From assembly GCA_905178155.1 (NCBI GenBank), contig CAJINV010000016.1, positions 1,625,102 through 1,689,101 on the forward strand: DNA of 64,000 bases, written 5' to 3'. This document shows positions 10,501 through 62,700 of this stretch, one piece after another; positions within the stretch are counted from its first letter, which is position 1, and the number at the start of each line of letters is the position of its first letter. Source of the stretch: Amoebophrya sp. A120. Lineage: Eukaryota > Protista > Dinoflagellata. A program made the translations under genes and the position numbers. The notes under the pieces are model-generated. The model saw nothing but the letters and a program-made list of their open reading frames with translations. It was not told where the DNA came from and did no database searches.

Positions 10501-13500
10501 CCGCCTTCAGTTCCGCGTTCTTCCGGATACTCATTTCCATCTGTTCAATTTCTTCCGTTGTTGGCACCGTTTTGTCCGGAACTTCCGTGAACTTCATCAT
10601 CGTCGACACGATGGACTCCGCCTGTCTATCGACTTTGCTCCTGGTCGTTGGAAAGTCCCCCTTTTCCAATGTCGCCCGGAACGCCAACGTGGCCTGGCGA
10701 ATGGTTCCTCTGCTGACAAAGTGCGGGGGAAGCAACCAGGTGGGGATGAGATCGAGAGATTGGACTTGCTCCGAACTCTCCCGGTCCGGACGGGAATCGG
10801 CGTCGGCACCGTGGGTCGTGCGGGTGCGATTGGAAGCTGCGTCACGTGCTTTTATTTCCAGGAAAGCTGTAGTTCCAGCCTGCGCCCCCTCTGCATCTGC
10901 TGGATGTACTTCTTCTGGAACGGAAGTTGGAAGTAGAACTGCTACATCTTCTACTGGCTCTTCGATTTTTGTCCTGTGCCGTGCATTGTTGCTGTGTCTG
11001 AGGTAGGTGCGTTTACTTTTCAGGTTGCTGTGCCTGCTCAGCGAAGAAGCTGCTGTGGCAGGAGCTTGAGCTTCTGCGTCGTCTATTTTGTCTTCTGCTT
11101 TTTCTCCTTCCGCTTTATCATTGCCAGCAAGTGCAAGCTGCGCTTGCTGCGCCAGTGGTTCTTCGACGTTTTTTGTCGTCTTTTCGTTTGGCCGCCCTGC
11201 TGCTACCTGATGGGAAGGCGCTAAAAGCAACTCGTTCTCCAACACTGGCGCAACCACTACATCCGCTTCCTCCGCGACACCCACACCAGAGCTGCCCGAG
11301 ACCGCATCAGTATCGTTCTCGCCGCCTGATGAAGATCCTCTTGTGCTGCTCCTGACAGAGTTCTTGTTCGTAGCACGCTTCTCTGAAACTTCTACTGGAG
11401 ATGCTTTATCACCCTGCTCAGAAGCTTCATGATTCTCCCCCAAGACCACCTTCGGCACCGCCATACCGCGTCCCCCGGTCAAGTCGCCGAGCCACCCACC
11501 CTTCCCCGCCGGGGGACTCAAATACGGGGGCAGACCAGCACTCTCCTGCAGCGGCGCGCTTGTTGGAGGAGGGGCCTGTGGCGAAATGTTGTTTCTCCTC
11601 GATGAACCTGTTGAAGTATCAGCTCCTTTCCCCCCTGCGACGGGATCTTCGCCCTTGCCATGAAGACCGCGGTGGTACCGAGTAGACGGTACTACCGGAC
11701 CAGAAGTATCTCCCGTTGATGGCGCGAGAGATAAATCTTCTTCCACACTTCTGTGCGCCGGAGTAGACCCCGGGGGTATAGGATTTAGGTGGATTGTGAT
11801 GTTCGGGCTCTTTCCAGCCTCTGAATAGCCTTGCGCGAGTTGCACCTCTTCCTTTTCCGCGTAGCCCAACGCGACGCAGACCTGCATGTAGTTCATGGCC
11901 GCCTCAAACATCACCGGGTTCGTGTAGTCCAGACACTGATTCCCCGCGGAATTCGAAATCTCGGACAATCCCGTGCTTGTCTGCTCAAAACACTGCTCAT
12001 ACGCCGTCGTGAGCTCCGCCGGAATGGGAATCGAGGACGTGGTTCTTTCCACACCGACCGCGTCCGCGAACAGTGCGATCGGGTCATCGAGAGATGATAT
12101 CAAAAGAAAAAAGTTCGTCACGATCACTCATGGGCATTTTTGCAATACAAAATTGTCTATCATGCGTAAAAATGCATCACAGCCACACTTCATAAGGGAT
12201 TTCCCTAGTGTTTCTGCAATACAAGGAGAAGTTGTGATGCTAAAAAAATTTGTAATGCAAAACCTGCAACTTAGTGACTGTGACAAACTTTTTTCTCTCC
12301 ATAGATGAAGATGAGGCTGCACTACTTGTTGTAGAACCGATTTTATTCGAGCTTGTAGAAGTAGTTCTATCGTGGATGCACAACTCCGTGATACAAACTG
12401 CGGAGAGCGTTAGTGCGCAGTCCAGTTTGATGTTGTCAAACGCGTCCAGCCAGCGGCTCCCGTGGTACGTGCACCAATTGTTCTGTGCCTCCTCGACGTG
12501 CACCGTCAAAGCGGAGAAGGGATTGGTCGCCACCGCGGGAACTTCCACACTATCGTATGCAAAAGTATCGCACTCGTAGTAATCGCATTCATGCATTACA
12601 AATCTGGTTCCCAAGGCAAATCAGCATGACAAATTCAATTTGTCGTGCTGAGCGAATTTGTATTGCAATTACTACTAGTACGATACTTTTGCAGTTCATA
12701 CACACCCTCCTGAGCCGACTTCTCTCGCGCCGGTAGGTCCCGCAGCCAAAGTGAGTTCGTTCCGAGGAGGTCAAAGCGGGCGTTGGATTTATTCTCGACG
12801 TCTATTTTTTCGTTTTTCTCCTCCTGTGCTTGTTTTAAATATCCGAGGTTTTCGGCAAGCACCAAGGTGTGGTTCAAATTCGCGCGGGCGAAAATCGGCG
12901 TGTGAAATAACTGGGTCAGCCCCTGTTCGCACAAGACAATGTCCATACCGTTGCGGTCGATGAAGGAGCGAAACGGAATGGCTAAATACAAAAGGAGCGG
13001 GATACCGATCTGGAGGGCCCAGGAAATCCACAGGATCACCTGAGAATACCAGGTAAGTTTCAGAAGGGATTTTCGGTACTTCTCCTGTTTGTTGCTGGCT
13101 GTCGTTCTGTGGTCTCCACCTGGAGGACCCCCGGGATCTTGATGCTCCCCATCTGCACGACCGTCAGGCGAAGTCGTGACACCTGTGGTGGTGACGTTAC
13201 CATCCTGCTCTGCAGCGATATGAGCAAGACTCTGTTGCTGGGCGTGGTCTACTTCAACATCTTGCGTGCCCTGCCTTTGACTTTGCACTAGACCGGATAT
13301 GATTCCGCGGTGACTACTGCTGTCTGGCGCAATGGTCCCGGGAGCGCCTGCTTCTCCACCTAGTACGTCAGCACGGGGACCACCGCCAGGTGGCGCTATG
13401 GTCTCCGGGTACGTCGTGCCGCCGCCGGCACGGCTGTTCTCCGTGGACGACAAAATAAATCCGTGCATTCCGCGGTTGGAAGCCAGAATGGACGCGTCGT

Positions 13501-26518: not shown

Positions 26519-29460
26519 TTAAGCCTTGGACATTTCCGGTGACTCGCGCTCTGTCGGGGCGGTTTCCGGAGTGCCGAAGGGTCCCTTTGACATGACGCCC
26601 ATTTCGCTCGCAGCCCAGCCATGCTCGTCATGCTCCACACCAGCAGCGTCCTGGTCGATGAGATCGAAGTGCAAATGAAATTTGCCATGCACAGTTTCGC
26701 AAAAAAAAAATGCTTTCTTTGTCATACAACTACTCAAGCACAAAAGGAGAGATAAGACACAAAAATTTTTACCTTCGCTCGGTTCTTTCTGCGCATGTCG
26801 TTTTCTACCAAAGCAGCAATCATCTGGTGCGCACGGCAAGTGGCGCGCATCGTTCCCCGCAACACGACCTGGAAGTTTGATGCACAGCATGATTTTTGGC
26901 AAATTGATTCATTGCATTGTGAGTTCCGCGTGACAAGTTTCCACGTAGTAGTGTACTTATGTAGACCTACAGCTGCTGTACAACGATATCTCGTGAGCAC
27001 ATGAAACTTGTGATGCGCAATCAACACGACACCCCGGTTGTAAAAAAATTTCGTTCATGCTGCAATAAACTAAAGACGAATTCTACCTCTCTCGTCGGCT
27101 CATCCGGCATGCCACCTCGGCCGAGGCCCTGGTTGATAATCCCTCCGTGGTGGTTGGTCTTCAACGCTGCCGGGTCGCCCGGGTTGGTTCCAGACTCGAT
27201 GTCGATTCGCACTCCGGTGCACTCGCGACGGATGGTGGAGATGGTGTTGCCGCGGCGGCTATCAAGTGCAAATATGTCTGGGTCTGGAAGAATGCAACTT
27301 GTCATGCAGATTTTTCATGACCCATGAGGTCTGGAATGCGGGACCTAGCATGGCAAACTCTGCGAGGTCCTCTCTGTCATGCCCATCCTGCATGAGATAT
27401 CCCCTCCCAACTTGGTCGAAAGTGGAGAGCTTTTGGCACTCATACAACACAGATTTTAGCATGCTTCAGATTTAGCATCACAAGTTACTGTCTTCCAGAC
27501 CCAGACATATTTGCAATGCATAGCGGCCGATCAGCATACCGACGGTGTCGTCCGGGAGGCGCAGCACGCACTCGATGATCGGGCCCGTATCAAAAAGAAA
27601 AATCCCCCCTCCCCATATCGGAAACGAAATTTGTGATGCTGTATTTGAATACACAAATCGACTTGTCTTGCCAGAAGGCCAAGAGACGCAGCTGTGGCCT
27701 GCATTGCGGGCAATTTGTCATGCTGTTTCCCACTTCCAGTTGCCTCGTGTCATGCTGGAGATGCAACACTTTCCCACGCTAGCTAGCACTACAGTCCGCA
27801 TCTTTTGCCTTCTAGCATCACAAAGCTGATATGTGACCACAGATCTGCATCACAGATTTCCGTTTTGATATGGGGAGGGGGGATTTTCGTTCTTGATAGC
27901 CCGCGAGGGGGGATTTGTAGAAGGACTCGGAGACGCGCATAATGTTATACAAAGACGGAATTTCCTTAATGGAAGCCCACACAGCGCGCATCGCCTCGCG
28001 GATCTGGGGCAGCTTACCCGACAGCTGTAGTTGTGTGATGGTGCGATAGGACAATATCATGGTGCTTTGTTTTATTTTTGCATCAGTAGAAACATAATGC
28101 TGATTTCGCCAGAAAACCAAATGCTGAATTCTTTCATGTAATGCGTGCACCGCATGAGAGCGGATCTCTGTCATGCTTGATCAAGAAACACGAACAATAA
28201 GCTCTCTCAAATTAATATTTTCAAGTACCTGAACTTCTCCCTCTCCCTGGATCTTCACTGTGCAACCGGAAGTTTCGCGAATGGAGTGCGCACCCTGACC
28301 CCGGCGGCCAATCACCGCACCGATTTGGTTGCTCGCGACGTCTACCTTGAAGGAAAACAAGTGATCTATCCTGAGCAAAAACGTCCCAACCCCAGAGTTG
28401 TCATGCAGATCTGCAAACACAAGAGCATTTGTAATGCGCATCTACATGAGAGGCATTTCCCATTGTATTTTGGAACCTGTAATGCTGTAAACAGGATAAG
28501 GAGGTGGATTTGTTATGCGGCTTCCCTTGCTAAACTGCATTACACTACAGCCTGCAACTTGTCATGCGTGGCTCCCAAAACCTCGAGGTTTGTGTTGCAA
28601 AATCCCCATCTTGACTCTGGGGTGGGATCGTTTTTACTCAGGATATGATCCTCGCCCAGGCGCGCGAGTTGGCCCTTCGTCGCGTTTTATCCTGTGCAAA
28701 AGTATCCTAGTCGTAACTAATATGCAATCAATTTGTAATGCAGATTTGCCTTAAGAACTAGACTAGTTCTTAAGCCAAATCTGCATTACAAATTCAACTT
28801 GTAATGCTGAGCCAATTTCTGTTGCAATCTATACTAGTACGATACTTTTGCAGTGCATACGTTTTTCAGTTCCCGCTCGAAAACGTCGAACATTGCCTCG
28901 ACACCTGGGGAGCGAGAATGGGTTTGTTCTGATGAGGAACAAGCAAGGGGAGCGAGAGTAAGTAGAGGTTTGTCATGCTGAATAAAGCACAATGCAAAAA
29001 TACGGCACATTGACATTTTTCATTCTGCAGTTTTTATTTACGATGCGTACCTACGCATGAGAAGCTGAAACTCTAATGCTCGACAAGCAATGGAAATAGT
29101 ACCGGCCTCCACGTCCTTTGTGATAATCACCTGACGCATGTCGACGACGCGGGGGTCACGCGGAAAAACCTTGATCGTAGACCCGGAATCCGACTAGACT
29201 ATGAAAGAGCAAAATTTGTCTTGCGTTCGTGCCGATGCAAACAGTGTTTGTCATGGTGGTCGTCCGATATGCATATTAATGTGACCTGGTCGAACAGTTC
29301 AGACCACAGACATGTCATTTCTGCAGGGTTCTACTGCGCAAGACAATAAGTTTTTCCCTTTCTTATGAATCTTCCGAATGGTATCGCCTTGGTAACCAAT
29401 GAGGCCGCCCATGAAGGCAACCGGCACTCGGATCGACAATTCGGCACGGGAATACACCAT
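26519..29460 (-). CDS. Triple KH-domain RNA-binding protein, 10 exons
   Basis: Three KH motifs after manual splicing (GGLIGYQGDTIRKI; GAVIGRRGQGAHSI; GMLIGRRGNTISTI...REVVLRG). Five IR/DR introns plus GT-AG introns 28905-29102, 28025-28228, 26869-27086 and 26651-26772. Confidence 0.85.
27260..27522. mobile_element. IR/DR introner, family E
   Basis: Exact 25-bp IR TGCAAATATGTCTGGGTCTGGAAGA; DR GCGGC; splits the KH GxxG loop. Confidence 0.92.
27588..27898. mobile_element. IR/DR introner, family F
   Basis: About 50-bp IR (AAAATCCCCCCTCCCCATATC core); DR GCCCG; splice gives LAGPIIE. Confidence 0.92.
28367..28645. mobile_element. IR/DR introner, family D
   Basis: IR TATCCTGAGYAAAAACG..CCCCAGAGT; DR TGATC; splice gives GEDHLFSF. 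Confidence 0.92.
28688..28859. mobile_element. IR/DR introner, family B variant with internal palindrome
   Basis: TGCAAAAGTATC IR; DR CGTTT; splice gives LKNATKG. Confidence 0.9.
29200..29365. mobile_element. Degenerate IR introner
   Basis: IR GAAAG..AAAA..TTGTCTTGCG; DR decayed; removal of element plus 5 nt gives IRKIQSDSG. Confidence 0.65.
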
Positions 29461-30959: not shown

Positions 30960-32830
30960 GTTAGTAAGCCCCCGGATGAAGGCGGGAGACCTATGACCGC
31001 CTGGCCCTACGGTCCGTCGGGGTCGGGCAAATAGAAAGACGGCGACAGGATATATACTCACTGCAGGGGCGAAGTAAGTATGTATTCCGGCCCATCCGCA
31101 AAATGGCGCTGCGGCAGACCGGCGCCCAGCCGGGCCGGCGAACACCGCGAGCAACCGCGCGCGGGCGCGACGTCGCGCCACATGCGCGCTACCGCCACAC
31201 ACAATAGGAGGGCATCAAACCTCTGTCGCTACTACGTACGAGCCCGCCGGGCCGGCGGGCGCGCAACTACAAGGCGCCACGGGGCGACCCAGGGTCGCGC
31301 TGGCGCTGCAGTGCCAGCGCGCGGGGGAAAAGGGCGCCACAGTTAGTAAGCGAAGCAAGCAACCAAACAAAGGCCGGCCCGGGGGGGGCGAACTGGCACC
31401 AAGGGCCGGCGGGGCATACACTAGCAACGCGGGAGGGGCCACCGCGCGCAAGCTGCCCCCCTGGGCCTGCGGCCGCGCCGGCCGCCCGAGGCTTGGGGGG
31501 CCCGCAGGGGCCTCAGCAAAGAAATAAATTTCCAGGCGGCCGGCCTGGTGGTCTTGGACCTGGTTGCGGCGCAATTAGGTCCATAACTGCGCGGGGGCGC
31601 TGGCCCATCGCCTTTGGGCGTTTTGCGCCCCCCTCCGCTACAGATTTGCGCAGGTGCGCCGGAAGCCCCACAGTGCCAGGCTGTTCGCCCAACAGCGGGC
31701 GCCGGCGAAGGGCCACGCAACCAGGAGCACAAAAATCCGCCGCGCGCCGGAGATGGAGCGGGCGCCTCTACGTACCTCCGGGAAACAGCCCAGATTTTCT
31801 CTAGGGCGGTCGCACCCAGTCCCTCCTTCCCCTCGTTTCAAATGCGGATGCAACAGTCCAAAAACTCGGGGCAGTTCTCGGGCCTCGGGCGAAACACGAC
31901 GGCCGCACCGCCCTGCGCCCACCGCGGGCATACTGGACCCGCCGGCCGACGCCGCAAATTGCCGGCCCCGGCCCCTTTTAGGGGCGAGGGGGCGGGCGGA
32001 GGGGAAACCAGCGCCGGGCCTGTGCCGGGTGACCCGCACGCCTTGGGGCCAAGCAAACAATCCATCAGCGCGCGGCGCCGGCCGCTCCGAAATGGCCACG
32101 AGCGCCAAGACTTTGCGGCATGACAGACCGAGCCGCGCCGCGCGCCGCTTCGCATCAAAAAGCGCGCCCCGTGTAGCCGCGCGACATGCGCCCTGATGCC
32201 ACAGCCGCGGCATTTATTTACATAGTCACTAGCGCAACTGAATCGCGATAGCAAACAAGGCAGCATGCACATTTGGTCGCTGTCGTCCGCCCGTCTGAAT
32301 TTCCAAAACAGTAACACTTCCAGCAGGGTTGTCCTCGGGATCGTTCACCGTAATGCAGGAGTGCCCGCGCCATGCGCGGAAGGCCCGCCGGGCGCGCTTC
32401 TGGGTAGACCGCCCGGATTTTCTCCATGAAGGTCGCCGGCATGCCTTCTTTCATTCCCCTCGTTCTGCAAACTCCAGTAGGGCTTCAGCAGTTCGGGGCA
32501 TTTCTCGGCAGTTTGGTGGAAGCAAAACGACGCGCGGCGGCGGCCGCTGAGAAAGCAGGGCCACAGGTGCCCAAGCTTTGCGGCATGGCAGACCCAGCGG
32601 CGCCACGGCGCCGCGCGGGCGTCGCGCGCCGTTTCGCATCAAAAACCGCAACAGCATGCGCCCCGACACTACAGCAGGCGGAGCGACATTTATTCACACA
32701 ACTTCAATTGCGCACAGAAAAACGAGAACGCATCTCGTTCACGAGCACCACGAACACAAACACCATCTAGACGGCACGCAGAAGCGACGTCAAGCCGAAG
32801 CCATACAAAACAGCCCCGCACGCACATTTT
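30960..32830. repeat. GC-rich non-coding island with an internal imperfect direct repeat; possible transposon remnant
   Basis: Abrupt GC rise, no coherent ORF; segments near 32105-32230 and 32570-32705 are diverged copies. Boundaries approximate. Confidence 0.4.
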
Positions 32831-37929: not shown

Positions 37930-39170
37930 GCCGCGCAAGCCTCCGGGCGGGGCCGCTGGCAGGCCGCCTGAGCGGCACGCATTTATTTTCCGAGGGAAAG
38001 TGGGCACGGTGCGTACTACACTTTGCACACGAACCTGCGCCATTCCGTCCGAGGGAGCGCACATCAGACCCCTACTTACACAATGAAGGAATGTCCTAGC
38101 GTGGGGCCGACGGTCGATGCTGCCCCCCCCCCGCCAACAAGCCAGCAACGAGCGCGCAATCGCACACCAATCTATCACACACCGGCCGCCCGGAAGGAAA
38201 ATAGCTAGGGCGCCAATGGGTCGGCGCGCGGGTGCCACGGATGCGTGCCTGCGCTGCGAGCGTGGGCGCGCGCGGCACATACCCCCGGCGGGAAAGAAAA
38301 CACGCGGGGCCAGGGAGCCATCCAAAATAAAACGGGCCGGGGCCCACCGACCACGGACCAAAAGGGGCCCGGCCCCGCCCCAAACTAAAGGCGCGCGCGA
38401 GGTGCGGGAGGGCGGGCCCCAGCCCCAGGGCCGGGGAAACCTCTCGCGCACCTGCCTGGGCAAGGTAGGAAGGCAAAGGCCAGCCGACGGGCCCAGGCCG
38501 GGGCGCAGAGAGAAAGGGAAGCAGGGAGGCACAAGGGGGGCGAGGCGTTGGCTCATTGCGTTCGTGTTTGCACGTCGGCCGTGATGATCCGTGGCCCACA
38601 GATGCACGCTCTTGGAATACATAGATGCGCGGCCCCGGCGCCCCCCCGGGCCTCCCGCACATGATACGCCCTCGAAGGGCGCGGCGGCGAAGCCGGTCGC
38701 CTCAAGCTCCGCCCGGGCGCCGGATGCGTGCCGCGGGCGCGCGCGTGGCCCGGCGCGGCCGCGGGAGGTCACCAGATAGCGCCCCGGCCCAGGGAAAAAG
38801 AAAACCGCGCCGCCGGCTTCTTTGCCACCGCACCCCCCCGCGAAGGAAGCCTCGCGACCTTCTTCTTCGCGGCGCCCCACTACCACACCGCGCCACGCTG
38901 CGTGGCCACCTGCTTGGGTCAGTAAATCAAGCACAACCAACCAACCCCGGGGGCAATTTCTTCCCCGGCGCGGCCACATGCTGGCCCACTGTCCGGGCCC
39001 AATTAGCGCCCCGCGTGTCCCACACATATCCGCCCGGATTGTCCCGCGCTTTCTCAGGTGGGACGCGCGTAAGTCGGCCGCCCAGCGTCGGGGTCGGGCG
39101 GCCCGTGCCTCCGCCCCCAGCCGAGCCCAGGAGGTGCGCGGCTACGCAAACGAGTTGCGCCCACATCTAA
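37930..39170. repeat. GC-rich non-coding island; possible transposon remnant
   Basis: Very GC-rich intergenic block, only Arg/Pro/Gly-rich spurious ORFs; no TIR found. Boundaries approximate. Confidence 0.35.
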
Positions 39171-40928: not shown

Positions 40929-43112
40929 TGTGATCGAGTTGCAACAGAATTTCAACGCAAAATTTCAACGCTTTGCAATCAAAATTCCAAAAGTGGAAAT
41001 GCGCAACCAGGGTAACAAGAATGAAAGATTCAAAAAAAGGCGAACCAACACAGCAAAATGGCAAAACATGTAAACATAGAAGGAGGGCTGAGGCTAAGGG
41101 GATGGGTCTTCAAAAAGTTTACAACTGAGGGCTGCTGTTCGGCGTAGCAATCACCTTTGGACGGTATAAGATCATAGACGAAAAATAAAAGATCATGGTA
41201 AGAACGGTCGGAGAAGATGAAACTGCAAGGCAGGTGATGTAAACAGGATCCTTTGATGACAAAGCTCGTTCGGGATCTGAAAAGTTTCGCTCAGAAATGC
41301 AATGCTGTAGTTGCTCCGGCACGGCCACTCTAAGAAGCTACACATTACATTCGCTGTTTTTATCTTTTTGAAGATCTATGCTCTCTCATATTAGTCTCGT
41401 ACCATACGTCGAAAAAATGCACGTGCTGCGAAAAAAGAGCTGCCCGGAGGTCCGCCGTCTGAAAACTGACAGTCCCATCGGATGCTGTTCTGCAGCTTCT
41501 CGCGTCTTGTAGCTTTCTTGTGGAAAGAAGATAAAAGTGATACAGCTGGCGCGCATAGGTCAAAACAGAGTCTGAGACCGTTTCAGAGTGAGACTGTTGA
41601 TTTTTTTGATAAGTACATGTATAACAACTAGTTGTAGTAGCGTGGCGGCTTTAAAAATATTCCGATTATAGAATCAATCTCCACCTACTCCTTTCGTGTT
41701 AATCGCATTGTTCACCTCGTCCTAAGCTGTGAGAAATACAGCGCTGCAGTTTTCTCACTTTCTACTCCTCTTCATTTCTTACTATACCGTACTAACCACT
41801 TTCTTGCGTTTCGCTACCTAGTTAGGTGTACTTAGCGGCTTTCTTGTCGTCTCTGATTATTTCAATGCCATAACCGAGACGCGGTCGCGGACGCATCATT
41901 TGATGCATCAGTTTGCTGGTGCACCCTTATTACCACCTCAGTTTTTTCTTATGGCCGCTACAGAGCCATAGAAGTACAACAACTGCTAATCAGAAATGCA
42001 CAGGCGGGGTAGAGAAACCATATCTAGTTGCGCGGTCGTAAAGCTACAGATGATTCTAGAATTTGCAAGACAAAAAAACTTTCGTCTGACAAAACTAAAC
42101 TGTAAGCTTTGCCTCTTGTTCAATTAGAAAGGATCATGTCTACGCAGTTTGCTTCCTCTGTTGAAAAAGCAATCTTCTATACCAAAATTAACTCCTGTCA
42201 AAAATTGCAGTAGAGAACGCAAACCAGCCATGGATGCACAACAGATTAGATTGTTTTATTTATGCTACTAGCCGCCGTAAAAAGGTCGTAGTGCAGAGTA
42301 AAATCTGGGGAAAAAAACCAGCTCTACTTTTCTGACCGTTCCTTTTCTCGGCGATAGCAGGCGAGGTAGTTGTAAATGGAAATAAACGTGTTTCGCGGCG
42401 GGGTGACAGTAGTTGAAAAGAAGGAACAATACCACCACTTGGGCAAAACCCAGTGTTGGGGAAAAAAGATGAAAAAATCGGAAAAGAAAACAGCTTTGTG
42501 GCAGCGAATAGTTTCGATGGGCCCGTGCGCGACCCGCCGCTGCGACCGTAGTGATCACAGCGCGATTGGGGGCCATGGTCATGGTGAATAGCAAAGTATT
42601 CAGCAAATCGGACTTTCAACTTTAGTACGAGTGAGGGCGCGCGGGGTAGTACTAGTACAACATAAAGACACTCATCTAGGTGAGTAGGTCTAGTGTCGCT
42701 GTTCAGAATGTAGGTACATTAACAAAGCCTCTTGTCGCAGTAGTGCTCCAGACCAATATTTCAGAGTTCGTGTACAGTCGAAGGGTTGTAGGAGAGCCTA
42801 CAATTTTTAGACTCTCCTGTAGGACATTATGAATTGAGTAGGTCGATATTCTGAGCTAGTAGATCTGCCCCCGCGCCGCATGATGGCTGCGAAGCAGGTA
42901 CGCCCAACTACCACTACAGGAGCTCGACCATAAAAAACCTGATAAACTACTTTATTCAATGCCGACAAGATAGGGTATCGTGTTTTCTTTTTTAGGGTTA
43001 GATTATAGAGATACCGATAGTACGTGTTTGAGTTTATTTTCAAAACATCCGATACAATAACGACGAAGATTCATACCCAGCACCGGCACTAAGCATATTG
43101 TTCATTTGTGTG

Positions 43113-48780: not shown

Positions 48781-51700
48781 TTACGTAACATCCGGCAGCG
48801 TGAGGCCGCTACTTCCTCCCCGTTTCATCCCAGCAGTATTACCACCAGTCACCCCACCGCCAGCTGTCCTAGGTCGCGACATGATCGGCTTGTTACCACC
48901 AGCTCCTCCTGTGCTGCTTTTCCATCCGCTGTGCGCCCAGAGTGAGCTCGGTGGGGGAGCGCCCATCCCGCGGAGTTTTTCCGGGGAGCTGGCGTCGTGG
49001 TCGTTTTCGATGTTGATTTTGTCCAAACCATCTCCCGGGTAGAACAACACTGGTCCTGCGGAATTCCTCTGCTTTGGTCCACCTAAATTCGCTGCTGACT
49101 GGCTGCCATTCATTGTCCCTCCTTTTTGCTCCATCGTTCTGAGTTCGTGCATTTTCTTTTCAAACAGAGAATTATCCTGATTGAAAACGTCCCCACACCA
49201 GACTCAATATGGGCAATCTGCTAGACAAATCAGCCAGCTTTGATTGTTTGGCATGACAAGTTTACCCTCGTAGTGTAACCCTGTTTAGCTAGTTCAGAAG
49301 CATCACAATCCAGCATAGCATGCTGATTCTAGCATCACAAATTCCAAAACACGAACAGAAACTGCCTCTCATGGGTCTCCGCATGAGAAACATTTTCAGC
49401 ATGCAGATTTGCATCACAACTCTGGGGTGGGGACGTTTTTACAAATGATACGACTTCTCACTCATTTGTTCCGGAATCGCCTTGTAGTTCACACTGTCCC
49501 TTCTCACATGCCCGGCTATGAATTGCAAAAGTAACGTACTAGCATAAATTGCAATACAAATTGGCTCAGCATTACAAATTAAATTTGTAATGCGGATTTG
49601 CCATAGGAACGAGATTTGTAATGCATAAATGCAAAGAGTACGAGTACGATACTTTTGCACAGGATACCGGCGGAGGGGTTCCTGCTCAATTGCGGCGTGT
49701 AACCTCCTCCGTCTATCGCGCTGGACATCCCTATGCATTGCAAATAACGTATCGCACTCGTATTAATTGCAAATATGCATGACAATTTTGTTTTTCCTAG
49801 GGCGAAACCGCATTACAAATTCCACTTTCCTTCTTGCCAAAATTTAAATTTGTGATGCATTTTATACTAGTACGATAACGATATCTTTGCAATGCATAAT
49901 CCCAGTACCCGTCCGATTCTTCGACGCGGCGCGACTTGACTGCCCGGAATTCGGTCCACTGGAGCCGGTGAACGGGAATTTTCCGGAGACGGAATTTTCG
50001 TTATCCAGCGTAAAAGTACGTATTGCACTGCAGCTCGCGCACGACAATATGCTCTGCTCTCTTTACCTGATTCTTTCTGCATGACAGAATTCATTTTTGC
50101 ATCTGGAAATAAAATTTGTCATGCAATTCCGACTTCAGACGGTACTTTTGTATTGCATATTCCTGATCCAAGGCCCATCTCATCGACGTCCTTCTCCCGA
50201 CTGCTCCGGTGGACGTCGCCGCGGAGTAAGGTCTACTCGGCGCGGCAGAGGAGAGATTTCCGCCCGCGGTGGAGGGTCGAGTTGATCCGCGGCTGCTGTC
50301 GCCGTGTTGACCATGACCACCAGGAACAGCAGCTCCGGAACTACCACCACCATAGGTCCCCGCAGCCCGGTATTTGCTCAAGTGGTCTCCGATGTTCCTG
50401 TTCGAAGCACTTGTTGTCAAATGCGGCATCCGCTGCCCCAGCAGGTTGAATTCGTACTCATCATTCGGATCTAATTCCGGCTCCCTCGCACCGTTCGGGT
50501 AGCTGAACTGTTGCAAGACCTGGGAAATCGGGGCGTTCAGCAAGTTGTCTTCCGACATGAGGCGGTTGTTTGCCGACGAAGAGGATGTTGCACCACCTCC
50601 ACCACCGCTTGATGTTCCACCACTTCCATCCGTCGTCCCAGCCTGCGGTAGATGGACTTGCAAGGTTGCGTTTTGAAACACCCCATCTGGACCACCAGAA
50701 GTTCCGTTCATCCCTCCATGCCTCGTCGTCGGCGGAGAGGAAGACCCCCTCGTCATGGTGCTGTTGTGTCGGTCTCTTGGACTCCTACTCGCGGACGGCG
50801 GTCTGATCATGTCCGCCTTGTCCCAAATCAGCTCCTCACCGGTGTAAACCGGCCCGCCCCGCACCGGCGTTGTCCGCAACTGCGGGATCACGCCGAAGTT
50901 CGTGCCCTATCCAAGAAAAAAACATTGTAGGTGTAACTTTTTTGGAGGAACAGCATTACAAATCTGTCTGGCATGACAGCAAAAACCTGTCATGCGCAGA
51001 TAGTACGTGAAAACGCCCTTTAATGGACCCTACCATGCATGCCAAGCATGACAGACGCAATCACTTTGCATGTTGCGCATCACAAATTTATACTAACAAC
51101 GTTTTTTTCGTGGGATATGCCCGGGTCACCTTTTACTGTGTCTCCTCGCATCGTCGGAGAATGTATCGTACGAAAAAAGCGTTTCACTGTAAGGATTTTG
51201 CAAGTTTGGCATGACAAGTTCGTTACACATGACAGGGAAAACTTGCCATGCGAGGTTCCTAAGGGAAAACACAGCTAAAAATCGCCTGTCTTGCATGTGT
51301 AGCAAGACAAACACTTCTGAGATACAGTTTCTGCATTACAAGTTTACAGTGAAACAGTGTTTTCTTGCGATAGAATGCGCGGGCGGGCTACTCCCGCGGG
51401 GCGCGTAGCTCGTGATGCTCAACCCCGGGCGACCGGAGGAGCTTATGAACTGCAAAAATGTCTGGGTCTGGAAACTTGTAATGCTAAGAATGAATGATAG
51501 ACGCACTGCAACAAGCAGCTATGCATGACAAATTTTTTGGCTGCCATGTCTTACGTATTCCGCATGGCAAACTGCGTTTTTGCATGACAGATACGAGGGC
51601 TTTTTCGTACCTATGCAACACAGATTCTCGAGTCATGCCAGACAAGCATGACAAACTTGCATTCTTCCAGACCCAGACATTTTTGCAATCCATAGAGCTG

Positions 51701-54700
51701 GGGCGGGACCGGCCTTCGGAGGAAAACTTCTGGGCGGTTTCTCGGAAGTCAAGGGGGCCGAAGTTCGCGACGCCAGGCATGAAGTTGTTGTGCACCGGGT
51801 AGCGATGGAGGTCGTCCACACTGTTTTTTGTGATAGTACAGTACAAATTTTGCACAAAATTATCATAGATTCTGAATCTATCAAATCAAAAAAGAGCTTT
51901 AGTGCACTAGATCGTATGACATACGATCTAGTGCACTAAATGCGTTTCTTCAAATCAAAATCCTCAAATAAATCGTAACAATACGTCAACGGCCTGTCCC
52001 GTTCACTCGTGAACGTCCCACTCGGCCCGGAAATCGGCCTCACTCGCGGTCCTATCGTCTCCGGTAGCTGAGTTGGCACACCCATCGGATACAGGGTGTC
52101 GAGCTGCTCGCGGGCACGCTTCAGAAGCTCGCCCTGATAGTTCTTTTCATATTCAGTAGAGTTTGAGTTTGCATATGCAAATTCATGCATGAATCGACGA
52201 TCCGAGAAAAATTATTTGCCATGCACAGAATCTTCAAGCATGTCCTCGGCAAAACATCAACTTTTGAAGTATACGTCTGTCAGCGAGTTCCCCCATCGGT
52301 TGTGTTGCGAAATTTCTTTCTGCTCCTTCCTTAATTTCGCCAACTCGTCCGCCAGGTAGATTTGGTAGGCCGCCTGCTGCTCCGCTTTCTCCTGTTTTCG
52401 CTTCAAGTGCCCCATTATCAAATGCAAAAATGTCTGGGTCTGGGAGATTGCAAGACTTGTCATGCATATTTTGCATGATCCATAACGCCTGTAATGCATG
52501 GCCTAGCCTCACAGATTTTTAGAGCGCTTCCTCATGCCTATTCCGCATGACAAATGCCATCTCGGCGGAGCACAAAATCTACTCCCCTTGGTGGTCATGC
52601 AATGCAAATCTTTTTCGAATTCAGAGACAGCATCACAAGTTTAGAATCTTCCAGACCCAGACATTTTGACATTTGATACCCATGTCGTCCTCGTACTGGA
52701 TCAAGTCGACCAGTTGCTCCTATCAAAAGAAAAAAGTTCGTCGCGATCACTCATCGGCATTTTTGCAATACAAAAAATGCCTGTCATGCGTAAAAATGCA
52801 TCACAGCCAAACTTCATAAGGGATTTCCCTTGTGTTTCTGCAATACAAGGAAAAGTTGTGATGCTAAAAAAATTTGTAATGCAAAATTTCCAAGGCAGTG
52901 ACTGTGACAAACTTTTTTCTTTCCATAGCTCTCGCTGCATCTTCATAAACGTTTGCCTCAGCACCTCCATCCTCGTCAGCCGGTCAATGGCATCGTGGTA
53001 GAGGCGGTCGAAGACATTTTCGTGTGTGTTCTTCACGACCCAATTCAGCTGCTCACCGAGCTTCTTGCGCATCGCAAGGGCTCCTTCTCGGGCTTTCTTC
53101 GGGTCGGCGAGCAGGGCTTCGATTTGCATCTGTTGTGGTGAGAAGGTGAGGAGTTCATTTGGAATTATTTGGCATTTGTGATGATCTGCGGAAGTCGAAA
53201 TGTCAACACAATAGAAAATCCGCGAAATTTCAAAATTTTATTTTTATCGGAGCTGTGAACAGGAGAAAGACATGAGAGCTGTCAAAACACTCCATCTACG
53301 TGAAACGAAAGCCTAACCAGGTGCTGGGATACAAGCCTTCAGCTCTGGACTTTTTTCTCACAACCTTGTTCAAAACATATCCGCGAAATTTCAAAATTTC
53401 ATTTTTATCGAAAAAGCAAATCCACGGAATTTCAAAATTTTATTTTTATTCGCATCAAAAATCACAACAAGCGCGTTTCTGCTGTAGCGAAAAACACAAA
53501 AAAAAAATACTATTTTTGTACCTGCAACTCCTGCAGCGCCGCCTGTAGCTTCTCAATTTCCGCTTTTAACCGCTTGATTTCCTCATCCCTTTGCCGGATG
53601 ATCTCCAGCAATTCCTTCTCCCTATCCTCCTGTTTTCTCCTCGCGGCTTCACTGCCCTCCCCGTCGGCATATCAAATGTAAAAATGTCTGGAAGAATGCA
53701 TGTTTGTCATGCTTGTCTGGCATGACTCTCAAATCTGTCATGCACGTTACCCAAGAGCGCCATTTTTCTGCCATGCAGAAACGCAGTTTGTCATGCAGAC
53801 TAGGCAACACCTAGAAGCTCAGAAACTTCTCATGCTGAGCCAGCACTTGTGGCTTCCTCATGATATGCCACCCAGCATCACAAGTTTCCAGACCCAGACA
53901 TTTTTACATTTGATACGGCAAGTTGTTTTTTCAACTTGTCCATCTCAGCCTGCATTTCTTTCCGGACTTTGTCCTCGACGGATTTCCTCGTATCGGAATC
54001 CACATCGCTCGTGTTCCCCTTCATGCCTTTCTTCCTCGCGTTGGCCATGAACATCTTCATGGCCATCCGCTCCATCTCCGCAATAGCCTGCTCCGCGCGG
54101 GATCGCTCAGCTTCCAAGGCAATTTCGAGGTCGGCGCACTGTCGTGGCGATAGAGTGGTATGGATAAGTTTCCTCAAAAAATCGCGTGACGATGCTAAAG
54201 CTTGTCATGGACCAAACTTGTCATGGACAAACCGTGCCAAGAGTCCGTTCTGTCATGTAGATATCGCACAGTCAAACTCAAAATTCGCAAGAACAGTTCG
54301 CACTTACCTTCTGCAGCGCCTCCTTCCTCCCCTGGTGCATACTGGACATGACAGCGCGGATCATCAACATCTTCGTCCGGTACTGTTTAAAAGTAGACCC
54401 GGGCTTCGGCAACATCTTCCCGACCGCGTTCCGCAATATCGTATCCTGTCTTTGCACGGGCGCATTTGCTGCACCCGCGCCAGACCCTGCTCCACCCTCG
54501 ACGGACACTTTTCCACCAGCGGAGGACTGCTGCTGTTGCAACTTCCTGGCTTCTTCCAGTTCCTTCTCTTTCTATGCAATACAACTTTCCTGCACATGTT
54601 CATGTACAAAATGCATCACAAATTTTACCAAGTTGGAGCATGCCACTTGTCATGCTGAATAGCATTGGAAGAAAAGTTTGTCATGCAGAAACCACATTTG

Positions 54701-57504
54701 TACGTCGTGTACGGGAAATTTCCTGTGGATACTTTCGCCATCAATGCCATGTCCTTCTCCTGCTGTGCCTGTTATGCAATGCAAAAGCATCGCACTCGTA
54801 TAAATTGCATTACAAATTAGCCCAGCATTAGAAATTGAATTTATAATGCTGATTCACCTTGAGAAAGAAATTTGTAATGCATGAATGCAATTACTACGAA
54901 TACGATAGTTTTGCACAGGGTACCTGTTCCTTCGCCCGGTCTGCTTCCTCCTTCCGCCGAGCGTCTTCTTCTTCCTATGGCAGTGCACAACTCCCTCGTT
55001 TGTATTGCATGAACAGCAAGACAAGCTTCAGCAAGAATACAGGTTTCGCATGACAAATTTGGACAGGACTGTAGTGCTGTTTGAGCTGCCAGAACTTGTC
55101 ATGCATAATAGTGACAGGAGGGAAAGCGGAAATGAGATGTTTTGCATGAGAAATGAGAACGAGGGGAAATTTTGCACTCTCATACTTCCTTCTTCAGTTG
55201 CATTTCCAGCTCCTCTTCGTGGCGTTGCAGTTCCTCTTTTTCGGTAGTTTCCGCCTCGGTAATCTTGGAGAGCTCCTCTTTCAGCGATTCTGATGAGGAT
55301 TTTTATTTTTTTGTCATGCACAAACCCGCTACACTCCTGAAAAGCGATTCTAGCATGCGTAGAGGACGTTATAATAGGACGATGAATCAAGAAAAATCAC
55401 TATCCCTACTGATCTCCGTCTCAATCTCCTCCACAGCCTGACTCAGCTGCATGATCTCGCTGGGATCCGCGCCCTCCTTCCTCCTCTGCTCGAGGTGTCC
55501 CGCTTGCCGTTCCAATTGCTTTGTTCGCATGTCTATCAAATGTAAAAATGTCTGGGTCTGGAAGAATTGATGTTTGTCATGCTTGTCTGGCATGACTCTT
55601 AAATCTGTCATGCACGTTACCCAAGAGCTCCGCTTTTCTGTGATGCAGAAGCGCAGTTTGTTATGCAGAATACATAGGCAACACCTAGGAGCTCAGAAAC
55701 CTGTCATGCTGAGCCAGCATTTGTAGCCTCATCATGAGACGCCACCCAGCATCACAAGTTTCCAGACTCAGACATTTTTACTTTTGATAATGTCTAATTT
55801 CTTCTGCACCATGTCTTTCGCGGCGTGGTGCCTAGAGAGATTCAGTTTGCACGCCTGAATATTGTGCTCAATCCTGGTAACCGCGGCCGACTGTTCATTC
55901 TTCTTGCTATCTTTCGCGAAGTTGTTCATACCAGCACCGATGTTTTCCAGTTCTGTCGCATAGGCCTTCGCGAGCTCTTCCAGTTCTACGACCTGCTGCT
56001 CCAGAGCCTTTTCGCGCTCGGTGGGAGCTGGTGTGGAGATGTTGACTTTTGTTTTTCAATTTATTCATGGCGTTGAATGCATGACAAAATCCTGCTATCA
56101 TGCGTCAACCACCGACCAGCAACGCAAATTTATTCTCTACCTTTTTCCTTATCACTCTGCGCATCCGCGGCCATTTGCATCATGCTCCGTCTTCTTTCCC
56201 GTTCCACCGGATCTTGTTCGTCCTCCGCTATGCGGATATGGTGTTCTCAAGCGTTACATTCTCAACTGTTACATGAAATTTGTTATGCAAGAATGGCAAA
56301 AGTGAAAGGGAGAAGGTTGCGCCTTTTGCATTACAGGTTTGAAGTAGATTATAATGCTATTTAGCGCGTCGAAAACTTGTCATGCGAAGCAGCTTGCTCA
56401 TCTAGATGCTGGTGCCAATTTTGCATGACAAATTCATATAACAGTTGAGAATGTAACGTTTGAGAGTCCCATAGCGGAATAGCAACAGTTTCAATTTCTC
56501 TTCCACGACCTCCGCGACGAAATGCCGGAGATTGTCCGGTAAGTACCGATATGCATTGCAAAAGTATCGTATTCGTATAAATGCATTACAAATTTCCTCA
56601 GCATGACAAATACAATTTGTAATGCTGATTCACCTTGAATTGAATTGAAACAGATTTGTAATGCATGACTGCAATACGAGTACGATACTTTTGCACAGGA
56701 TAACCGAGTTGGCTCGTAAAACATCACCGGTTGCTCGTCGGGCTGGCCTGTATCCTGTGCAAAAGTATCGTAGTCGTACTAATTGCAGTATATGCATGAC
56801 AAATCTTCTTTTCAAAGTAAAACAGCATGACAGATTCCATTTCTCATGCTGAGCAAATTTGTAATGTAATTTGTACCAGTACGATACTTTTGCAGCTCAT
56901 AGCCCGTACCGTAAACCAACTCCTTGATGTGTTGGAGCTGTCTCTCATCCAAGACCCGGATCTGGTCTCGCATCGCGGTTAATTCCTTCAAATACGACCT
57001 CCGGCAATCATCTAAGTCATCACGAAACAATTCGTTTTCCTCCTTCAACTGCTCGATGATTTGCTTCGGGTGCATTTTGTTGTGCTCGTCCAGAGTTCCC
57101 TCCACCTCCCACATGAGGAGGAGAGATTTCCACATAAATTCCGCATTGAATTTCAAAACCTGTCCAGCATCGACGTTCGGTTTTATTTTGCTCATCGCAG
57201 TGTTCGTCGTTTCTTCCAAAACTTGCGCGAACTTCTCGTTCCTCTGAACCAAATTCCGCAACTCCGCTTTGTCACGGATTGACGCGGGGGTCGCCGCTAT
57301 CCCGAACCCGCGGGAAGTCTGGGGGAGGTCTTCGAGCATGCCGCCCGTTGGCGAGTTGTTTCGGTTCGATTCAGTGCCCAAAACCGTGTTCGCCCGGGTT
57401 AGTCCGGAAGTAGGGGACGCCGGCCGCGGATTGCCCGCAACGCGGGAATTTTGCAGCAACGGGGGCGCAGGCCCCGTGGAGCTGTAGGAGGGGGTGCTCG
57501 GCAT
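48781..57504 (-). CDS. Large coiled-coil protein of unknown function, about 24 exons (17 IR/DR plus about 6 GT-AG introns)
   Basis: One reading frame traced from ATG 57504 to stop 48781 after removing each intron; E/K/Q-rich heptad segments, Ser/Gly-rich tail. Confidence 0.75.
49173..49450. mobile_element. IR/DR introner, family D (inverted relative to 28367)
   Basis: AAAACGTCCC..CCAGA IR; DR decayed (AGAAT/CGACT); removal of element plus 5 nt gives EKSLFEKK. Confidence 0.8.
49517..49666. mobile_element. IR/DR introner, family B
   Basis: DR CCGGC; in-frame splice PSAGHVRR. Confidence 0.9.
49732..49898. mobile_element. IR/DR introner, family B-like
   Basis: TATGCATTGCAAA at both ends; DR ATCCC. 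Confidence 0.9.
50002..50159. mobile_element. IR/DR introner, family B-like (diverged)
   Basis: AAAAGTAC IR; DR TTCGT/TTCCT; splice gives DQENSVSG. Confidence 0.8.
50908..51117. mobile_element. IR/DR introner, family C
   Basis: DR TGCCC; body similar to 45110-45318. Confidence 0.9.
51164..51372. mobile_element. IR/DR introner, family C
   Basis: DR GAATG; TAAGGGAAAACACA core shared with 45110-45318. Confidence 0.9.
51444..51694. mobile_element. IR/DR introner, family E (inverted relative to 53670 and 55534)
   Basis: IR TGCAAAAATGTCTGGGTCTGGAA; DR GAGCT. Confidence 0.92.
52416..52678. mobile_element. IR/DR introner, family E
   Basis: DR CCCAT; splice gives DDMGHLKR. Confidence 0.92.
52721..52927. 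mobile_element. IR/DR introner, family A
   Basis: DR GCTCC/GCTCT; close copy of 12098-12303; splice gives MQREQLVD. Confidence 0.9.
53670..53915. mobile_element. IR/DR introner, family E
   Basis: DR CGGCA; close copy of 55534-55789 with a small deletion in the left IR. Confidence 0.92.
54573..54731. mobile_element. IR/DR introner (diverged IR)
   Basis: TAT...ATA; DR CTTTC. Confidence 0.85.
54773..54922. mobile_element. IR/DR introner, family B, GT-AG compatible
   Basis: DR CCTGT (ACAGG on the coding strand). Confidence 0.9.
54976..55184. mobile_element. IR/DR introner
   Basis: IR AGTGCA.AA..T.CCCTCGTT; DR CTTCC. Confidence 0.88.
55534..55789. mobile_element. IR/DR introner, family E
   Basis: DR ATGTC; splice gives KKLDMRTK. 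Confidence 0.92.
56237..56473. mobile_element. IR/DR introner with about 60-bp IR
   Basis: IR core CGTTACATTCTCAACTGTTA; DR GCGGA; splice gives LLFRIAED. Confidence 0.92.
56550..56702. mobile_element. IR/DR introner, family B
   Basis: DR ACCGA; reverse orientation of 45359-45503. Confidence 0.92.
56751..56901. mobile_element. IR/DR introner, family B
   Basis: DR GCCTG/GCCCG; splice gives YGTGQPDE. Confidence 0.88.
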
Positions 57505-59758: not shown

Positions 59759-62700
59759 CTACACTGCCCGCAGCTGCTGGTCAAAAACTCCTCCAGTGAA
59801 ACTGGTGTCATGTTCCATCGTGTAGCTACTCGCCCCGCCTGTGCTCGTCGCCCGAACCAGAATTCCGCTCTCCGCGAGCTGATTCGTGCTTGCAGTGCTC
59901 GTAGCGTGTCCCTCGGTCGTACTAGTGGTGACTGTTCTTGTCGTAGAGGCTGCAACAGCTGCTGCTGCAGCGGCTGCTGCCACCGTCGCGGACGCTCCAG
60001 CAGCACCCCCCGCCCCACTTCCGGCGTAGTTGTAGGCGCTATCCCAGGAGTCGCTCAGGTCCCAGCTCGCGTTGTAGCCGTAGAACGCACTGCTGGCGCT
60101 GCTCATGTAGTGGTCTGCAGCATTTCCGGAGTTATTCGTGGCCGCCGCAGTAGCAGCAGCACTACCATGGTTGGACGACCCAGCGGCGGCCCGGTTGTAC
60201 GAGGACCAGGAATTATGGTGCAAATGGCTACTATTTCCTCCACCGTATTTGCTCGCCCCATACTTGTGCTCTTCGCCATTGTAACTGTGGTACTTGCTTG
60301 GGACGAACTCCTCCGCCGAACTGGTCATACTGATGCTGTTCTTTCGACTGTTTGGTTGGAAAGTGTGCTTCTGGTACGACGCGGACACGTTGCTGTGATT
60401 CATGTTCTGCTGTTGTTGCGCATGATGTAATTGCTGCTGTTGTTGCAGCTGGGCTGCGTTTTGTCGTGCGGACGCGGCGTACTGGGCTGTGTAGTAGCTT
60501 TCGTAGCTCTGCGTGAGCCCGTAGTAGTTGCCGATTCTGTGTTGCTGGATCGGAGGCCGTTCTGGGCTGCTGTTGGAACAGCTACCTGATTGGTTTTTTC
60601 ACGAACAATTTGTTTGTGGTTTATTTTGTCATGCAGAGACAGGAACTACTACCACGAATGGTCATGCACAAGAACAAGAACACCACAAATTTATTGAAGT
60701 ATCCCAACAAGCACTGTGAACTAAAAATCATACCTTCATCACTATCGCAAGCAAAGCTCCCCTTCCGCCGGGTTCCCATCCAAAGCGCAACTTTCTTCCC
60801 GTTCCCCTTTGCCCCTGCGGACGTCGAGGCCGGGATGGGCAACGTGGCCTTCGGGGAGATGTTCGTCGCTCGGAGTTGTCCGTACTTCATCGCCGACCCC
60901 ACGACATTGAATTCGAAAACCTGTTGATGCAGTATATGCAATACAAATCTCGTCCCGCAGCACGCGCACAGGTACAAAGTGCTTCACAAATTTCGCCAAG
61001 TTAAAGAAGTGTAGAAACACACGATCATTACAGATACCTGTCCAATGGCCACGCCCTCCCCGCTTTTTGGCAAGTCTTGGAGTCTCACGTACACATCCCG
61101 GCCGGTCTGTGCGTAAAGCTCACGGCAGCGAAGAAAACCTGATAGGGTAAGAATGTTTTCGTTTTGTGTGTATATTTTTGTGCACAAGAACAAGACCACC
61201 TTTCACTTATCAGATGCTCTCGTGACTCGTCGTCTTCCGTAATCAAAAATCTTGCTGCATACAAGGAAATATCGTGGGTCGTGTCAAGTACCGTGCCCAT
61301 GCTCCTTCATGAAGCGCTTCAGAACGCCCGAATAGCGCAGTTGGTCGTCGATTTGGGGAAGCACCTCGGTAGCAACGGCGCCTCAAGATTCGAGTTTTGT
61401 TTTTTCGCAAGGTCGTGGACACTCACACTCGTCTCATCGACAAAATCACAAGAAACTGTAACTGAAAAAGTAAACTTTCACTTTGAACATCATATATAGA
61501 AGTCGAATTTCTACTCGCATCCCCAACTATGGTGCGCACTTCAGATTCTTTCCGCACTTCGGACTGCAAAGAGTCTAAAACTTGCAACTCGTCGAGCTTC
61601 ATTTCGTCCGAAGGGGAGGTGGTTGTCGTGGTGGTGCTGTCGGCTGCAGCCGCGGCTTCCGGCTCTACAGCAGCAGTAGTTAGAGCAGCTGGTGCCTCCT
61701 TCTCGACTGCTTCCTCCCGGCTTCTCATCGTCTCGACCAACGACATCACGTTCTCGTTCCCATCAACGGATTTTATCTCCGCAGACCCGTAGTTCGGAGA
61801 GCGGGTGCGGTTCAAAACCAACCTCCTTTGCGGTTTCATCTCAGCCTGTGATGAAGCAGAAGTAGTCTGTCCTCCGGTTGTGGTGTTGGCGCCACAGGTT
61901 TTTGATGATGCCTCATCTTCCGGGACCAGGTTATGCGGTTCTGTCGTGTGCTGGTCTGGCTCCTGTCCCTCTTGGAGAAAAACCGCTTTTTCACCAGTTG
62001 TCGTCCCAGAGGATGACAGCACGACAGGATCATGGAAAGCATTCTTCATTTCGATCGATGCAGTTGCAGCTACTGTGATACCCAAGAAGTTCTGGTGGTG
62101 GGACGATGTTGCCGCAGCAGCAGCTGCAGAACTACCCGATGCTGGCGCGCTGCTTTGTGTACTAGTCTTCGCATGAATTATATCGCAAGAAAAAAGTGTT
62201 ACAGTTACACATTGTGTTGCAGGCCAAGCAAGACAGACAAGCTCTGTCATGCCGGATATGCATCGGAGCCTCCTTTCATAGGTATTTTCCCGTAGGATTT
62301 CTGCATTGCAAGTTTTCTCTCTCATGCAGAGAAATTTGTGTTCGCTGAATTGACAACAAATGTGTAACTGTAACACTTTTTTCGTTCGATAAATTACCCT
62401 CGGCGCGACCGGGCTGTCCGGTAAAACCAAAACCTTCTTCTATCGTTTTCAAAAACGTCCCCGCCCCATAGTTGTAATGCAATTCTGCATGCTGCAAATG
62501 TTTCTCATTCGGAGCCCCATGAGAAGCGTTTTCTAGTCGTGATTTGGAATTTGTCATGCTCCAATCAGCATGGTGTGCTAGATCTGTGATGCTGCTCAGC
62601 TAGCTCAAACAGCACTACACTACGAGTCCATGTTTGTCATGCAAAACAGCCAAAACTTGTGGATTTGTCTAGCCGATTCCCCATCTTGACTATGGGGTGG

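What the first reader, a model, noticed from the sequence alone, without database searches (positions are those of the whole stretch)
12551..61041. Built-in route from introner to canonical GT-AG intron
Seen: because ends are TA...TA and the DR is 5 bp, a coding-strand DR of GNNNG gives G|TA..TA|G, a GT-AG intron that leaves 3 extra nt and stays in frame (12551 GTGTG, 49517 GCCGG, 54573 GAAAG, 54976 GGAAG). A DR of NNAGG gives an exact GT-AG intron (54773 ACAGG). The GT-AG intron around 60925-61036 keeps a perfect ACAGG DR and one terminus but has lost its IR. In my manual models 14 of 23 ordinary donors start GTAT or GTAC (G+TAY), and many of those introns hold TTGTCATGC-like relics. Inference: once GT-AG is available the IR can decay, so many canonical introns here may be old introners.
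Basis: partly seen in the sequence, partly recalled or inferred. Interest (0 to 1): 0.8.

Follow-up and report, generated by a model that had tools for sequence, protein, structure and literature searches.

The report
Parasite introners skip nearby splice signal
In the marine parasite Amoebophrya, these already described transposon-like introns are cut out exactly in the main transcripts, skipping a standard splice signal three letters away, and one ordinary-looking intron here is likely a worn-down copy, so turning into a normal intron likely happens but looks rare.

Summary
The window is Amoebophrya sp. A120; the TAT..ATA elements are its published introners (Farhat 2021). Transcript contigs remove element+5 nt at 54573 and 54976 (4 of 4 runs) and at 49517 (length sum); the annotated protein does so at 12551. 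The exact route is real: 54773 (ACAGG) reads as GT-AG, and GT-AG intron 60921-61037 is a decayed family-6 element (32.4 bits, perfect repeat, no hairpin). The wider inference is unsupported. In 307 copies from a close relative, GT-AG-compatible repeats are not enriched and not more decayed; a nominal trend in this window (p=0.025) is family-confounded. Decayed copies mostly stay non-canonical. Only 1 of 20 canonical introns shows clear element homology, and GTAY donors differ from element ends. A GCATGACAA motif is enriched in canonical introns and remains unexplained. New detail, inferred: cuts sit at a fixed register, N|TAT...ATA-NNNN|, ignoring an in-frame TAG. Minor isoforms could not be tested.

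The parts
12551..12700 (-). TAT..ATA introner, family 0, repeat GTGTG (GNNNG). Inferred intron 12547-12701, ends GT..GT
   Evidence: annotated protein P0001 equals the exact-excision model (2580 aa), not the +3 model. No RNA laid here
49517..49666 (-). introner, family 0, repeat GCCGG (GNNNG). Inferred intron 49513-49667, GT..CG
   Evidence: transcript anchors 987/1948 match the exact model; +3 would give 1951 (table 8)
54573..54731 (-). introner, family 6, repeat GAAAG (GNNNG). Inferred intron 54569-54732, GT..AA; in-frame TAG 3 nt upstream is skipped
   Evidence: joint skips 164 in 4 of 4 runs
54773..54922 (-). introner, family 0, repeat ACAGG; exact excision reads as GT-AG intron 54769-54923; hairpin still present (z -6.1)
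   Evidence: joint skips 155, CT..AC, 4 of 4 runs
54976..55184 (-). introner, family 5, repeat GGAAG (GNNNG). Inferred intron 54972-55185, GT..AA; in-frame TAG skipped
   Evidence: joint skips 214 in 4 of 4 runs
60921..61037 (-). 117-nt GT-AG intron with perfect ACAGG repeat (61041-61037 and 60924-60920), likely a decayed family-6 introner; no inverted repeat
   Evidence: joint skips 117, CT..AC, 6 letters fit either side (one run); fold z 0.08; terminal IR score 7
60935..61006 (-). relic of the 3' 60 positions of family 6 including its terminus, followed by a 10-nt near-copy of the last 9 nt before the second repeat
   Evidence: 32.4 bits against a profile built from the relative's copies only, shuffle maximum 6.5; alignment to 54573
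49173..49450 (-). introner with mismatched repeat AGTCG/ATTCT; still excised as element+5; shows the last base of the second repeat is exonic
   Evidence: transcript piece ends at 49168 with no other letters (table 8)
50002..50159 (-). decayed introner (IR score 21.5, fold z -0.6), repeat AGGAA/ACGAA, non-canonical ends, still excised as element+5
52721..52927 (-). introner with mismatched repeat AGAGC/GGAGC, excised as element+5
   Evidence: joint skips 212 in 4 of 4 runs
56751..56901 (-). introner with mismatched repeat CGGGC/CAGGC
   Evidence: transcript piece begins at 56902 (table 8)
48781..57504 (-). host gene, 1361 aa (P0003), 17 introners and 6 canonical introns, no Pfam family; approximate lower bound
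   Evidence: model equals P0003 and the 5500-nt contig; orthologs P0004, P0005
7565..15724 (-). host gene, 2580 aa (P0001), two introners (12098-12303, 12551-12700); stop-to-stop frame bounds

Best explanation
These are Amoebophrya A120 introners that the main transcripts lose exactly (element plus one 5-nt repeat), likely cut at a fixed spacing from the paired TAT and ATA ends rather than at the nearest AG, so they read as GT-AG only when the repeat happens to be NNAGG, and such a copy can likely then decay into an ordinary-looking intron, as at 60921-61037. SHOWN: exact excision in RNA contigs; skipping of an in-frame TAG; element homology of intron 60921; no enrichment and no extra decay of GT-AG-compatible copies. 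INFERRED: cut-and-paste insertion with a 5-bp target-site duplication; the register N|TAT...ATA-NNNN| (one base before TAT, four after ATA); that the termini themselves set the cuts; that GTAY in host donors and N-TAT in elements are one shared donor signal, not ancestry; that conversion is a by-product affecting a few percent of copies.
For: All 21 elements in 44.1-64 kb fit element+5: 10 by direct joints and 11 by length sums. Nine of the 21 have an in-frame TAG 3 nt upstream of the used end and none uses it (5 direct, 4 by sum). Register: RNA gives 1-3 (49173, 50002, 56751; table 8), and only register 1 fits all 10 junctions of L029 against the A120 ortholog P0006. All nine top A120 non-canonical motifs in Farhat Table S4 have T second. 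Repeat composition equals flanking exon: NNAGG 5/307 vs 1.6%, GNNNG 21/307 vs 7.9%. IR score by class, within family, p 0.2-0.7. G before TAT in decayed vs intact copies 18/51 vs 90/307, p 0.41. Repeat mismatches are not directed toward GT or AG, n=78. In L029, low-scoring copies at 2192, 2624 and 3101 (38-46 bits) end GG, TG and GT. TAT[CG] starts 309 of 335 elements but only 9 of 53 canonical GTAY donors.
Against: In the window alone, GT-AG-compatible copies have lower IR scores (37.7, n=5, vs 46.0, n=23; p 0.025) and so do G-preceded copies (39.2 vs 47.5; p 0.005); not family-corrected, post hoc and not replicated. GCATGACAA is enriched in canonical introns of both data sets, and the relative's 60 predicted canonical introns have slightly raised terminal complementarity (10.2 vs 8.7 +/- 0.6; the window shows none). 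G after the 3' end showed a borderline link to decay (p 0.055). Farhat report IR+DR in 15% of canonical A120 introns, more than my roughly 4% compatible share predicts. Copies decayed beyond 18 bits are invisible to my tests. The register rests partly on a cross-strain comparison with an annotated protein. The relative has no RNA, and its strand calls are computed (26 of 28 correct in the window).
Confidence: 0.78

Rival explanations
1. One reading: GNNNG copies are spliced as G|TA..TA|G and add a codon; together with NNAGG this is a built-in route that releases the inverted repeat.
For: The geometry is real and in frame. Nominal IR deficit in the window. Codon-adding introners exist in Aureococcus (PMC9860276).
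Against: Exact joints at 54573 and 54976 in 4 of 4 runs, at 49517 by sum, and at 12551 in the annotation. No enrichment or extra decay in 307 copies.
Confidence: 0.05
2. Most strain-specific canonical introns are very old introners converted by the exact route or by later mutation of the intronic repeat to end in AG, with GCATGACAA as the last surviving trace.
For: Intron 60921. L029 1565-1961 reads GT-AG with GCAG in the intronic repeat where the exonic copy has GCGG. Motif 4.8/kb in canonical introns vs 0.39 intergenic and 0.06 coding. Fungal precedent (PMC3609843).
Against: 19 of 20 window introns score under 14 bits. Donor +4/+5 bases differ from element ends. A perfect 5-nt junction repeat occurs in 1 of 20 and 0 of 60, and ATA at -7..-5 in 1 of 20 and 0 of 60. 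No directed drift to AG. 98.6% of positions shared with A25, whose introner ends differ, are canonical, about 19% of all introns against 35% canonical, so roughly half of the canonical introns predate the split (my arithmetic).
Confidence: 0.2
3. GCATGACAA is a functional intron or chromatin signal used by both intron classes; elements carry it on both strands, and it says nothing about ancestry. This is compatible with the best explanation.
For: The motif survives where flanking homology does not, occurs in GTAR introns too, and CATGAC is 11 sense to 1 antisense in the window's canonical introns against 27 to 24 in elements.
Against: The strand bias was not reproduced in the relative (11 vs 12); positions range from -29 to -191 from the acceptor. 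No binding partner was tested.
Confidence: 0.35

Closest known systems
Amoebophrya A120 introner elements (Farhat et al. 2021, PMC7789003)
   Same: Same organism; ends TAT + 7 nt + AAA; inverted repeats; 3-5-nt direct repeats; IR+DR already noted in 15% of canonical introns.
   Different: The passages read leave the border position as variable or unknown. Here it appears fixed, and one converted intron is shown. Supplementary figures S19-S25 are images that I could not see.
Polarella glacialis class 12 introner-like elements (Roy et al., bioRxiv 10.1101/2020.10.14.339549)
   Same: 5-nt duplication NNAGG, donor made of the last G of the duplication plus the element's first base: the same geometry as 54773 and 60921.
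   Different: There the duplication supplies the acceptor consistently; here the repeat is unconstrained and about 96% of copies have no exact GT-AG reading (12 of 307 do).
Euglena nonconventional introns (PMC12501133, PMC4770533)
   Same: [quoted passage not shown]
   Different: Motif TAT/ATA with inferred spacers 1 and 4; no shared ancestry tested; not tested genetically here.
Fungal introner-like elements decaying into regular introns (PMC3609843)
   Same: Loss of length, sequence identity and structure until indistinguishable.
   Different: They are described as spliceosomal introns from the start (that their ends are GT-AG is recalled); here most copies are non-canonical and decayed ones mostly stay so.
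Aureococcus codon-adding introners (PMC9860276)
   Different: Not what the A120 transcripts show at the sites tested.

Membership tests
Amoebophrya A120 introner elements | ends TAT + 7 nt + at least AAA | tested here: met
   a few families lack the A run
Amoebophrya A120 introner elements | terminal inverted repeat forming a hairpin | tested here: met
   median fold z -7.3 for 28 elements vs 0.0 for 20 canonical introns; not met by relic 60921
Amoebophrya A120 introner elements | 3-5-nt direct repeat at the borders | tested here: met
   24 of 28 perfect 5-mers, 4 mismatched
Amoebophrya A120 introner elements | repeated in families and spliced out of mRNA | tested here: met
TIR DNA transposon / MITE | cognate transposase or an empty-site allele | not testable with these tools
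   no genome held; no ortholog DNA for the window's genes
Codon-adding introner (Aureococcus type) | mRNA gains codons at the insertion | tested here: not met
   (dominant isoform only)
Polarella class 12 type | duplication consistently supplies the AG acceptor | tested here: not met
   NNAGG 5 of 307, at background
Euglena-type nonconventional intron | fixed spacers between cuts and a paired motif | tested here: inconclusive
   register 1 inferred; no direct mapping or mutagenesis
Introner decayed to canonical intron (fungal ILE model), for 60921 | GT-AG intron with residual family homology and lost structure | tested here: met

The most novel reading that the evidence does not exclude
A120 uses a Euglena-like ruler code (N|TAT...ATA-NNNN|) that overrides an in-frame AG, plus a GCATGACAA signal shared by all its introns; copies that reach GT-AG in that one register switch to ordinary splicing and erode, so a large share of its strain-specific canonical introns are converted introners.
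Probability: 0.2. Interest if true: 0.65.

Novelty: new member of a known kind. Interest (0 to 1): 0.35.

Why it matters
Farhat et al. left open how A120 places cuts at 65% non-canonical introns with no U1 snRNA detected. A fixed register that ignores an in-frame TAG narrows the mechanism and can be tested with existing reads. Intron 60921 is a concrete non-canonical-family element that now reads as a plain GT-AG intron. The headline claim, a built-in +3 route that explains many canonical introns, does not hold on the data available.

Tried and rejected
One exon is 94% identical to an A120 protein. 2) No RNA holder was listed on record. Raw-read runs X9-X11 lay only on element copies, so minor isoforms could not be counted; X3-X6 are spliced contigs whose RNA status is the tool's guess. 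3) In one search, 28 joints were hidden; one search covered 52000-55500 (2 rows hidden). 12551 was never laid. 4) A GAG acceptor at 52128 that would have masked two +3 junctions was excluded (skip 141). 5) 'A GT donor relaxes the hairpin' looked real in the window (p 0.005) and by eye in L029, and was rejected. 6) 'CATGAC is a strand-specific branch signal' was not replicated. 7) Automatic boundary calling on 81 orphan hits was noisy and fed only 5-nt, IR>=30 cases into. 8) My gene finder forced GT-AG on 26 of 86 predictions with element homology of 18 bits or more; these were dropped, and one checked against the ortholog (L029, 155 nt) was a false call. Others (L079, L127, L072, L050) remain unverified candidates for conversion. 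9) Five coordinates were off by 1-2 nt and were corrected. 10) Rfam found nothing in the window; no earlier findings came back.
Full report
Identity. Exons of the window match proteins named Amoebophrya sp. A120 at 100%. The elements start TAT, seven variable bases, then As, the A120 introner motif of Farhat et al. (PMC7789003 section 11). I found 26 by terminal scan and 2 more by reading, all in minus-strand genes. The elements are therefore known; the question is the proposed route to GT-AG.

Observation. The five cited elements, their repeats and both GT-AG readings are in the sequence. I count 13 of 20 canonical donors as GTAY (15 RNA-supported introns and 5 predicted).

The +3 route. Transcript contigs skip 164 nt at 54573 and 214 nt at 54976, element plus 5, in 4 of 4 runs from 2 samples of one study. 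At 49517 the joint row was hidden, but contig anchors (987, 1206, 1948, 4083, 5500; table 8) match the all-exact model, while +3 gives 1951 and 5503. At 12551 the annotated protein equals the exact model letter for letter; this is annotation, not reads. All 21 elements in 44.1-64 kb fit element+5, 10 by direct joints and 11 by sums. Nine have an in-frame TAG 3 nt before the used end and none uses it. Contigs drop rare variants and the raw-read runs did not cover exons, so only the dominant isoform is tested.

Where the cut lies. Mismatched repeats bracket it. The RNA keeps the last base of the second repeat at 49173 and the second base of the first repeat at 50002 and 56751 (table 8), allowing registers 1-3. 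In locus L029 of the relative, compared with the A120 ortholog P0006, register 0 fails at two junctions and register 2 at two; only register 1 fits all 10. That gives N|TAT...ATA-NNNN|. All nine leading A120 non-canonical motifs in Table S4 have T in second place, which agrees but could partly reflect aligner preference. This step is inferred. It resembles the spacer code of Euglena (abstract). In this register only NNAGG yields GT-AG.

The exact route. 54773 is spliced as element+5 and reads GT-AG with its hairpin intact (z -6.1). Intron 60921-61037 is spliced GT-AG (one run), has ACAGG at both ends, folds no better than shuffles, and aligns over 60 profile positions, including the 3' terminus, to family 6 (32.4 bits, shuffle maximum 6.5; profile built only from the relative's copies). 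This is good evidence for one conversion. Family 6 hairpins are weak anyway (mean IR score 31.8). L029 1565-1961 is a second candidate (23 bits, GT-AG reading available).

Is decay released by GT-AG? In the window, compatible copies score lower (5 vs 23, p 0.025), but three of the five belong to family 0 and one to family 6, both low-scoring. From the relative, 424 calls gave 375 unique copies, 323 with confident strand and 307 with at most one repeat mismatch. Repeats match exon composition (GNNNG 21/307, NNAGG 5/307). Class does not predict IR score (30 vs 277 copies, 45.0 vs 44.7; within-family p 0.51). A profile-based measure on 384 regions that includes decayed copies finds G before TAT in 18 of 51 decayed and 90 of 307 intact (p 0.41). 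Repeat mismatches do not drift toward GT or AG (78 copies). Decayed copies with non-canonical ends exist: 50002 in the window and three in L029.

Are canonical introns relics? One of 20 exceeds 14 bits; 13 of 20 beat their shuffles at p<0.05, mostly through short motif matches. Canonical GTAY donors rarely continue like elements (TAT[CG] 9 of 53 vs 309 of 335; TAC 22 of 53 vs 11 of 335; the relative's donors were restricted to GTA by my finder). GCATGACAA is enriched (16 vs 1.5 and 22 vs 4.3 in shuffles) but unrelated to donor type. Slightly raised end complementarity in the relative's 60 predicted introns favours some relics. Farhat's figures imply that about half of the canonical introns sit at positions shared with A25, whose introners end differently. 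The motif may be a relic or a functional signal; I cannot separate these.

Literature seen. PMC7789003: abstract, passages, sections 11, 12, 16, supplement search and part 3 of 5; figures S19-S25 not visible and may bear on the register. bioRxiv 2020.10.14.339549: parts 1-2 of 4, supplements not requested. Passages: PMC12130899, PMC11282704, PMC12005148, PMC3609843, PMC9860276. Abstract or opening: PMC4770533, PMC12501133. Five searches showed no listing that states the fixed A120 register or a converted A120 intron; coverage is limited to the open library.

Verdict. Known elements; +3 route not used in dominant transcripts; exact route real but expected for about 2-4% of insertions, with close precedents in Polarella, fungi and euglenids. 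What is worth keeping: the inferred AG-blind register, one converted intron, and an unexplained shared motif. Interest 0.35.

Noticed in passing
window 52-175 (minus strand, approximate): A further decayed element (family 12, 28.5 bits) with a likely CGAGT/CAAGT repeat and TT..AG ends; not in my list of 28 and not covered by RNA.
   Followed up: partly
window 697-1932: 1.24-kb intergenic segment bounded by 48-nt inverted repeats (92%), no obvious target duplication, no Pfam match in its 193-aa open frame; possibly another TIR element.
   Followed up: partly
window about 31000-32650 and 37900-39170: Two very G+C-rich intergenic stretches with many overlapping open frames, unlike the genes around them.
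   Followed up: no
window 35298-35444: Repeat TGCAG puts a CAG one base beyond the exact end; using it would shift the frame. A good test of the ruler; no RNA laid.
   Followed up: no
window 26521-29460: A gene that looks like a KH-domain protein (GxxG loops, by eye and recall) with 4 introners and at least 4 predicted canonical introns.
   Followed up: no
window 51821-51984: Canonical intron with a strong internal palindrome (fold z -6.7) unrelated to the element profiles.
   Followed up: no
L029 230-4077: Ten element-derived introns in one gene, several heavily decayed, two with the terminus changed to ATG, still fitting element+5 against the A120 ortholog.
   Followed up: yes
window 53249, 53407, 55190 (loose ends): Contigs from elsewhere match part of canonical intron 53130-53521 and the exon beside 55190, so these stretches recur in other transcripts.
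   Followed up: no
window 39483-40964: Single open frame with a PX domain (E 1.5e-12).
   Followed up: partly
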